A stretch of 64,000 nucleotides of DNA from Octopus vulgaris (taxonomy: Eukaryota), in NCBI GenBank assembly GCA_951406725.2, contig OX597822.1:21018001-21082000 (forward strand). Reading direction: 5' to 3'. Numbering within the stretch: position 1 is the first letter of the stretch; each line of letters starts with the position of its first letter. The position numbers were made by a program, and so were the translations under genes. Below the pieces are notes generated by a model, which was not told the DNA's origin, ran no database searches, and was given only the letters and a program-made list of their open reading frames with translations. Below are positions 54,529 to 55,721 of this stretch, one piece after another.

Positions 54529-54838
54529 ACTGTGTGGTAAGAAGCTTGTTTCCCAATCATATTTTTCACTCCCAATGCATAGTACTTTGGGGACAAGTGT
54601 CTTCTACTATAGCCTTGGGCTGACCAAAGCTTTGTGAGTGAATATACTAGACAGAAATTGAAAGAAGCCTGTTGCGTGTGTGTATATATATCTATATCTA
54701 TCTATATCTATATCTATCTATATATATATATACACACACACACATATATATATAAATATGTATATATATACTTATGTGTGTTTGTGTCTGTGTTTGTTCC
54801 CATCACCACCTCCATAGCTTGACAACTGATGTTGGTGT

Positions 54839-55360
54839 AGAAAATTAATATTTTTAAATCTCACAACGAGAGATATTCAGCAACAGTACTTTGGAGTAAA
54901 GATTTTTGCCAACATGGCAGTCCTGGTTTAGGATCAATGTTGCTGTAATTTAGCTCCAGGAGACATCATCTCCAGCTGGCTATATGACACGATCTGTGTC
55001 CTTATATTTTCGAACAAGGAAATCTAGCACCCCAACTCAGTTCAAAATAATATGTGTATCGTGATTTCTGGGTTATTTCTCTTCATCAGCACAGAATAAT
55101 TGTTTGGCTAAAGGTGGTGCTGCCAAATTCTCATTTGAAATATATAGTTTTCTAAGTGACAACTAGTCACTGATCTATAAATTAGAAAATTAGAAAATTG
55201 CAATACACAGATATTGTTTTGAGATGAGCGGGGCTGCTGAAAATATAAGGACACAGATCATGTCATATTGCCAGCTGAAGATGATGTCTCCTAGGGCTAA
55301 ATTATAGCAACATTCATCCTAAACCAAGACTGCCATATTATGTTGGCAAAAATCTTTACT
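54839..55360. mobile_element. 522-bp hammerhead-bearing fold-back element (family H2) with 13-bp TSD
   Basis: TSD ctgatgttggtgt at 54826-54838 and 55361-55373; ~54894-55010 is inverted at ~55240-55360; HHR on the minus strand. Confidence 0.85.
55052..55095 (-). ncRNA. Minimal type I hammerhead (stem II partly decayed)
   Basis: ctgtg-CTGATGA-agagaaataaccca-GAAA-T-cacg-A-TA^cacat. Confidence 0.65.
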
Positions 55361-55721
55361 CTGATGTTGGTGTGTTTATACCCCCATAACTTAACAGTTT
55401 GGCAAAAGAGACTGATAGAATAAGTACTTGACTCACAAAGAAAAGTTCTGGGGTCAATTTCTTTGACTAAAACCCTGGCAGTGCTCCAACATTGTCACGG
55501 TCAAATGACTGAAATGCATAAAAGAATAAAAGAATAAATATATGAATGTATGCCTGTGTTCTAATATTTTGCTTAGGCATTGTGAGATTAATAAGCTGGT
55601 GTAGAACTCAATATATGTATATTTCAGAACAACGTGTTAGATGAATAAGAAAAAAATGACAATGAAGGAATAAATGATTATCCTATAAACTTCACCCGCT
55701 TACGGCTGTTTTTGCAATAAG

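What the first reader, a model, noticed from the sequence alone, without database searches (positions are those of the whole stretch)
54826..55373. HHR fold-back unit inserted as one piece into a SINE with a 13-bp TSD
ctgatgttggtgt flanks both sides of a 522-bp non-coding insert made of a full monomer with HHR plus an inverted partial copy. Removing the insert and one TSD restores a continuous SINE. This is strong evidence that the ORF-less monomer-plus-inverted-arm structure was created in a single integration event rather than by later decay.
Basis: seen in the sequence. Interest (0 to 1): 0.75.

Follow-up and report, generated by a model that had tools for sequence, protein, structure and literature searches.

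The report
Penelope-style hammerhead retrozyme insertion
This is one decayed copy of a common protein-free jumping element with a hammerhead RNA motif, sitting inside a SINE as two back-to-back pieces between a perfect 13-base duplication; that layout is the normal form of its family and is already known from Penelope-like elements, whose enzymes likely pasted it in one step.

Summary
Observation confirmed. The 13-mer flanks a 522-bp insert exactly; 29 of 29 uninterrupted SINE copies carry it once at this position. The insert is two 5'-truncated, head-to-head arms of a 353-nt hammerhead monomer with thousands of genomic candidates. It is the family's commonest form: 70 of 87 loci are head-to-head, and all 44 whose outer ends could be classed pair one short end with one end carrying a ~55-nt tail; 29 of 44 have a TSD, mostly 12-13 bp. 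An intact young Penelope-like element (PLE) here follows the same rule in 11 of 11 inverted insertions. Single-event origin is supported; 'fold-back' copying is not (arm starts coincide in 2 of 39). Arms of one locus share variants about 2.2 times more than expected. Best model (inferred): two staggered nicks each prime reverse transcription at one of two fixed RNA sites. Inverted pLTR, one-sided tail and TSD are published PLE features, and this scan reported the same footprint for other families in this genome. No partner PLE found; ribozyme activity untested.

The parts
54526..54838 (+). Host SINE, 5' part (head, internal TA/TG microsatellite, body up to and including the target site)
   Evidence: matches other copies in window and 29 genomic copies
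54826..54838 (+). Target-site duplication, left copy (13 bp)
54839..55192 (-). Arm B: one full monomer (family positions 1-353 plus 9-10 nt redundancy), 3' end at the tail site, 93% to family majority
   Evidence: (L001)
54839..54893 (-). About 55-nt 'tail' between the two fixed 3' end sites of the family; present on this arm only
55051..55095 (-). Type I hammerhead motif, core intact, stems II and III each with a mismatch; predicted cut between 55057 and 55056
   Evidence: no Rfam hit; no stable fold alone, z 0.66
55193..55360 (+). Arm A: 5'-truncated copy from about family position 124-126 to 306, ending at the short 3' site; private 14-nt deletion; lacks the hammerhead 5' core
55361..55373 (+). 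Target-site duplication, right copy (13 bp)
55361..55540 (+). Host SINE, 3' part
   Evidence: 83-86% to 39 other scored copies

Best explanation
This is one decayed copy of a protein-free, hammerhead-bearing 353-nt repeat that sits in a SINE as two head-to-head arms between a 13-bp duplication, and it was likely pasted in a single event by a Penelope-like reverse transcriptase-endonuclease acting in trans. Shown: family, two fixed 3' end sites about 55 nt apart, variable 5' ends, one arm ending at each site, TSD around the whole. Inferred: the enzyme nicks both target strands about 12 nt apart; each 3'-OH primes reverse transcription on the element RNA, one at the short site and one at the tail site, likely on one tandem or circular RNA held by one dimeric complex; both cDNAs stop early and are joined 5' end to 5' end, often over a few shared bases; fill-in gives the TSD.
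For: 70 of 87 loci head-to-head, 0 tail-to-tail; 44 of 44 classable ones are short/tail, 0 short/short, 0 tail/tail (one of the 44 lies at a locus edge); probability 2e-11 under independent 50:50 choice for the 43 non-window loci. TSD score 9 or more in 29 of 44 against 3 of 500 mismatched flank pairs, length 12-13 in 18 of 29. End sites tight: 306-308 in 22 of 29, 8-11 in 23 of 29. Young intact RT+GIY-YIG element (Pfam) shows one short and one tailed end in 11 of 11 inverted insertions. Arms of one locus share 32 non-CpG variants against 14.4 expected (67 loci; rare variants 14 against 4.7), tandem passes 19 against 6.5 (26 arms) (shuffle test 33 against 14.2 +/- 3.3). In vitro an Anolis PLE protein cuts and extends both strands, starts at two internal RNA sites bounding the tail, and is predicted to be a dimer (PMC11167929).
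Against: No autonomous partner found: the monomer matched no pLTR among 30 RT loci, 30 GIY-YIG loci and 28 10-kb stretches; the young PLE's 11 inverted insertions are in TA microsatellites whereas this family inserts in mixed sequence. 26 of 70 head-to-head loci have an end at neither site and were not classed; 15 of 44 have no clear TSD; 17 of 87 are single-orientation. Most differences between arms are unshared (arm-arm divergence 6.9%), and subfamily structure or later gene conversion could give the shared-variant excess. The window's own arms share only one variant, a 1-nt deletion seen in about 10% of family alignments. Loci are the best hits to this copy, 40 of about 2000 candidates scored per search.
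Confidence: 0.75

Rival explanations
1. Fold-back or self-priming: one cDNA (or an antisense template) folds back and is copied, making the inverted arm from the first arm, as proposed for rotifer PLEs with palindromic junctions.
For: Proposed in PMC3846280 (passage). In the window copy the short arm lies wholly within the span of the long arm. Would also explain shared variants.
Against: Arm 5' ends coincide in 2 of 39 loci; in 27 of 39 the short-ended arm reaches further upstream than the tailed arm, so neither can be a copy of the other. It does not explain why the second arm ends at a fixed site.
Confidence: 0.08
2. Two primings on two separate RNA molecules drawn from the cell's pool, with the short/tail rule set by the geometry of the protein dimer rather than by one shared RNA.
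For: Both arms copy overlapping template; arm lengths are uncorrelated (r -0.10); shared-variant excess could reflect few source loci active at a time.
Against: Rare variants (under 5% elsewhere) are shared 14 times against 4.7 expected, in 11 of 67 loci, near the rate for tandem passes within one arm.
Confidence: 0.12
3. Stepwise assembly or decay: a second copy inserted next to the first, or an autonomous PLE with inverted pLTRs lost its ORF.
For: Some loci are complex (3-4 segments); a decayed PLE with inverted ends lies 600 bp away.
Against: TSD bounds the whole, never one arm (16 against 0 of 38); central junction positions differ from locus to locus; no RT similarity in 87 loci and no similarity of the monomer to the neighbouring PLE.
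Confidence: 0.05

Closest known systems
Metazoan non-LTR retrozymes (PMC7229834, passages; bioRxiv 10.64898/2026.07.22.740005, part 1 of 5 and passages)
   Same: ORF-less 170-400 nt unit, type I hammerhead with short palindromic stem III, low GC, tandem copies, TSDs longer than 4 bp, PLE proposed as mobiliser and origin.
   Different: In the passages read, head-to-head insertions and two fixed ends are not described ('inverted' occurs 0 and 1 times in the two texts); long tandem arrays are rare in this sample; self-cleavage and RNA circles are not shown here.
Endonuclease-bearing Penelope-like elements: inverted pLTR, one-sided tail, TSD (PMC3846280, PMC8557442, PMC2377424, passages)
   Same: Inverted 5'-truncated copy at the 5' side, partial tandems, tail usually on one end only, TSD of 8-10 bp around the whole, cis-acting pLTRs sufficient for integration in trans.
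   Different: No ORF; tail about 55 nt rather than 30-40; TSD mode 12-13; no sequence link to a known partner.
Anolis Poseidon element PAc in vitro (PMC11167929, parts 1-2 of 4)
   Same: Two internal start sites bounding the tail; both target strands cut and extended; hammerhead cleavage not needed for insertion.
   Different: That work did not test whether one insertion uses both sites; different clade and host.
LINE-1 twin priming (recalled, no call)
   Same: Two target nicks prime two cDNAs, giving an inversion inside one TSD.
   Different: There the arms come from adjacent non-overlapping parts of the RNA and the second site is variable; here both arms overlap and both start sites are fixed.

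Membership tests
Metazoan non-LTR retrozyme | Non-coding unit of about 170-400 nt in many copies, with tandem junctions | tested here: met
   353 nt; 1802-2483 first-look candidates; arms longer than one unit common
Metazoan non-LTR retrozyme | Type I hammerhead motif in each unit | tested here: met
   core intact in 47 of 69 spanning copies, core and all stems in 13 of 69; 8 of 12 pairs change on both sides between two related families (5 rows, chosen by a pairing filter, so biased). Position 10.1/11.1 is A-G or A-A in 67 of 69, not a standard pair
Metazoan non-LTR retrozyme | TSD longer than 4 bp, no LTR/PBS/PPT | tested here: met
   TSD 9-16 bp, mode 12-13; PBS/PPT not searched for separately
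Metazoan non-LTR retrozyme | Self-cleavage of the RNA | not testable with these tools
   needs in vitro assay; arm 5' ends are not enriched at the cut site (9 against 5.3 expected, p 0.09)
Metazoan non-LTR retrozyme | Abundant monomer-size circular RNA | tested here: inconclusive
   1443 RNA reads laid from about 6% of one run, both mate directions alike, no pile-up of starts or ends; monomer-junction reads also arise from tandem DNA copies
Penelope-like element (insertion signature) | 5'-truncated inverted copy, partial tandems, tail on one end, TSD around the whole | tested here: met
Penelope-like element (autonomous) | ORF with RT and GIY-YIG endonuclease | tested here: not met
   no RT match in 87 loci; unit is 353 nt
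Non-autonomous derivative of a specific PLE family | Sequence shared with the pLTR or 3' end of an autonomous family | tested here: inconclusive
   none in the PLE loci sampled; only top-scoring families were sampled

The most novel reading that the evidence does not exclude
Every inverted Penelope-type insertion is made by one dimeric enzyme reading one RNA twice: one subunit starts at each end of the tail, each primed by one of two nicks about 12 nt apart. The strict short/tail pairing (44 of 44 here, 11 of 11 in an intact young PLE) and the variants shared between arms are the genomic footprint, and would explain both the inverted pLTR and the one-sided tail of PLEs.
Probability: 0.45. Interest if true: 0.6.

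Novelty: new member of a known kind. Interest (0 to 1): 0.33.

Why it matters
The locus itself is an ordinary dead copy. Its family is useful because the origin of tandem/inverted PLE structures is stated as unresolved (PMC8557442) and the mobiliser of animal retrozymes is argued from co-occurrence and phylogeny. A strict one-short, one-tail rule with 12-13 bp TSDs ties an ORF-less hammerhead repeat to PLE chemistry by insertion scar and gives a direct prediction for the existing in vitro PLE assay.

Tried and rejected
Rfam: 0 hits. Arm 5' ends at the hammerhead cut site: 9 against 5.3 expected, not significant; rejected. Primer-template microhomology at the outer ends: mean 1.4 and 1.6 nt against 0.3 and 0.6 in the null, but the TSD was taken at maximal length, which about doubles the null; left as inconclusive. 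Central junction overlap of 1-4 nt in 32 of 69 junctions was not tested against a null. Neighbouring decayed PLE as partner: no similarity. Young 775-aa and 781-aa PLE families and other GIY-YIG loci as partner: no similarity. SINE targeting: 5 of 85 other loci have this SINE within 80 bp of an end, at different sites; not pursued. Orthologous empty site: contigs of 4 runs (4 species labels) hold the family but none spans the locus; no RNA holder was listed by index. First majority sequence (346 nt) missed two family insertions and was replaced; counts are superseded. Unequal decay of the two window arms (9/144 against 10/319) is not significant (p 0.13). One search had one wrong coordinate and was redone. 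Rows dropped: L061, L091 (the window itself), L106, L114 (same insertions as L095, L092).

Full report
Observation. The 13-mer stands at 54826-54838 and 55361-55373, identical, with 522 bp between; these are the only exact matches in the window. Twenty-nine other copies of the host SINE, fetched by similarity to the right flank, each carry the motif once at this position and run straight from the bases that precede the left copy into those that follow the right copy. The genome is 2.8 Gb; the SINE resembles octopus SINEs (recalled, no call).

The insert. It belongs to a repeat family with 1802-2483 first-look candidates (not copy numbers) and occurs in runs of four species labels. A majority sequence from the sampled loci gives a 353-nt monomer; arms differ from it by a median 3.6% outside CpG sites. 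In hammerhead-sense coordinates the window holds a full monomer on the minus strand (54839-55192) and a copy from about position 125 to 306 on the plus strand (about 55193-55360). Both outer ends are 3' ends; the 5' ends meet in the middle.

The hammerhead. Rfam finds nothing. A type I motif with a six-base palindromic stem III is at 55051-55095 on the minus strand. Related families in the fetched loci keep the three stems with changed letters (8 of 12 pairs changed on both sides; five rows from two families, chosen by a pairing filter, so this leans towards the structure). Such short stem III motifs are described for PLEs and thought to work as dimers with low activity (PMC4209133, passages). 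Of 69 copies spanning the motif 47 keep the core and 13 keep core and stems; the window copy keeps the core but has mismatches in stems II and III and does not fold stably alone. It has one hammerhead only and is most likely inactive (inference).

Family architecture. 87 loci were mapped: 29, 29 and 27 from three searches with different parts of the unit, the window copy, and an older relative at window 33.1-33.9 kb. 70 are head-to-head, 17 single-orientation, none tail-to-tail. 3' ends fall at two sites about 55 nt apart. Of the 70, 44 have both outer ends at these sites and all 44 pair one short end with one tailed end (one lies at a locus edge); 26 have an end elsewhere and were not classed. 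Under independent choice the chance is 2e-11, allowing for the one search that required a tail. 29 of 44 have a TSD (24 score 10 or more, against 0 of 500 mismatched flank pairs), 18 of 29 are 12-13 bp; maximal-repeat calling may add about a base. In 38 simple two-arm loci an exact repeat of 10 bp or more bounds the whole insert in 16 and one arm alone in 0. The window copy is thus the modal product of the family, made in one event.

Not a fold-back copy. In 39 simple loci the two 5' ends coincide within 5 nt in 2; in 27 the short-ended arm reaches further upstream while the other alone has the tail, so neither arm can template the other. Junction positions differ between loci, which also excludes copying of a pre-formed inverted master.

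One source for both arms. Arms of the same locus share 32 non-CpG variants over 7247 columns against 14.4 expected, rare variants 14 against 4.7; successive passes in one tandem arm share 19 against 6.5; a swap test gives 33 against 14.2 +/- 3.3, maximum 25 in 1000. This favours one template or one source locus, but subfamily structure and gene conversion are not excluded, 46 of 67 loci share nothing, and the window's arms share only a common 1-nt deletion.

The carrier. A decayed PLE lies at about 50833-54250 but shares nothing with the monomer. Its RT fragment finds a young family with a 4271-bp unit and a 775-aa RT plus GIY-YIG frame. All 11 inverted insertions fetched have one short and one tailed end (picked as inverted pairs from the hit list), the same rule, but in TA microsatellites and with no sequence link to the monomer. 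No partner was found in 60 short and 28 long PLE loci.

RNA. One raw RNA run gave 1443 reads from about 6% of the run, mostly 85-95% alike, both mate directions similar, no common starts or ends: compatible with read-through of many old copies, no evidence for or against circles. Arm 5' ends are not enriched at the predicted cut site, in line with hammerhead cleavage being dispensable for insertion in vitro (PMC11167929).

Mechanism. Shown: fixed paired ends, TSD, truncation, head-to-head joint. Inferred: a PLE enzyme in trans nicks both strands about 12 nt apart, each nick primes at one end of the tail, the two truncated cDNAs are joined. The in vitro PLE study supplies double-strand nicking and extension, two start sites bounding the tail and a predicted dimer.

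Known art. Inverted pLTR, tail on one inverted end and 8-10 bp TSD are described for rotifer PLEs, with mobilisation in trans by pLTRs alone (PMC3846280, passages) and as the general PLE layout (PMC8557442, passages; PMC2377424, passages). ORF-less type I hammerhead repeats are non-LTR retrozymes, with PLEs proposed as mobiliser and origin (PMC7229834, passages; 10.64898/2026.07.22.740005, part 1 of 5 and passages). Five paper searches listed no paper on a strict short/tail pairing or on octopus retrozymes; the library lacks most subscription papers and the listings were not all read. Earlier notes of this scan describe the same footprint for other hammerhead families in this genome; none matched this sequence or place.

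Verdict. Real, correctly observed, single-event insertion; a new member of a known kind. Interest 0.33, carried by the family-wide rule rather than by this locus.

Noticed in passing
window 50833-54250: Decayed autonomous Penelope-like element (RT and GIY-YIG remnants, open 238-aa stretch at 52650-53363) with inverted ends, an internal inverted copy near 52104-52257 and its own hammerhead motif at 54116-54159 (+); unrelated to the 353-nt unit.
   Followed up: partly
L151-L153, L156-L164: Very young PLE family (copies 98-100% alike), 4271-bp unit, 454-aa frame overlapping a 775-aa RT-endonuclease frame; 11 of 11 inverted insertions in TA microsatellites have one short and one tailed end.
   Followed up: partly
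L195, L196, L206: Second young PLE family with a 781-aa RT-endonuclease frame, 46% identical to the first, also bounded by TA repeats.
   Followed up: partly
window 33119-33852: Older relative (77%) of the same monomer, also head-to-head.
   Followed up: partly
window 17749-17791 (-); L197 2937-3490; L164 8000-8540; L138 3250-3430: Further hammerhead repeat families that share a central stretch with this monomer and sit in TA microsatellites.
   Followed up: partly
family hammerhead, window 55082 and 55069: The pair closing stem II next to the core is A-G or A-A in 67 of 69 copies, where related families have a standard pair; may lower activity.
   Followed up: no
L095 and L076: Two more copies inserted in or against the same part of this SINE; L095 has a 12-bp TSD about 20 nt from the window's site.
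   Followed up: partly
window 56695-56800 and beyond: Perfect 42-bp tandem repeat.
   Followed up: no
window 55720-56007: A second SINE-like element ending in a GAT repeat.
   Followed up: no
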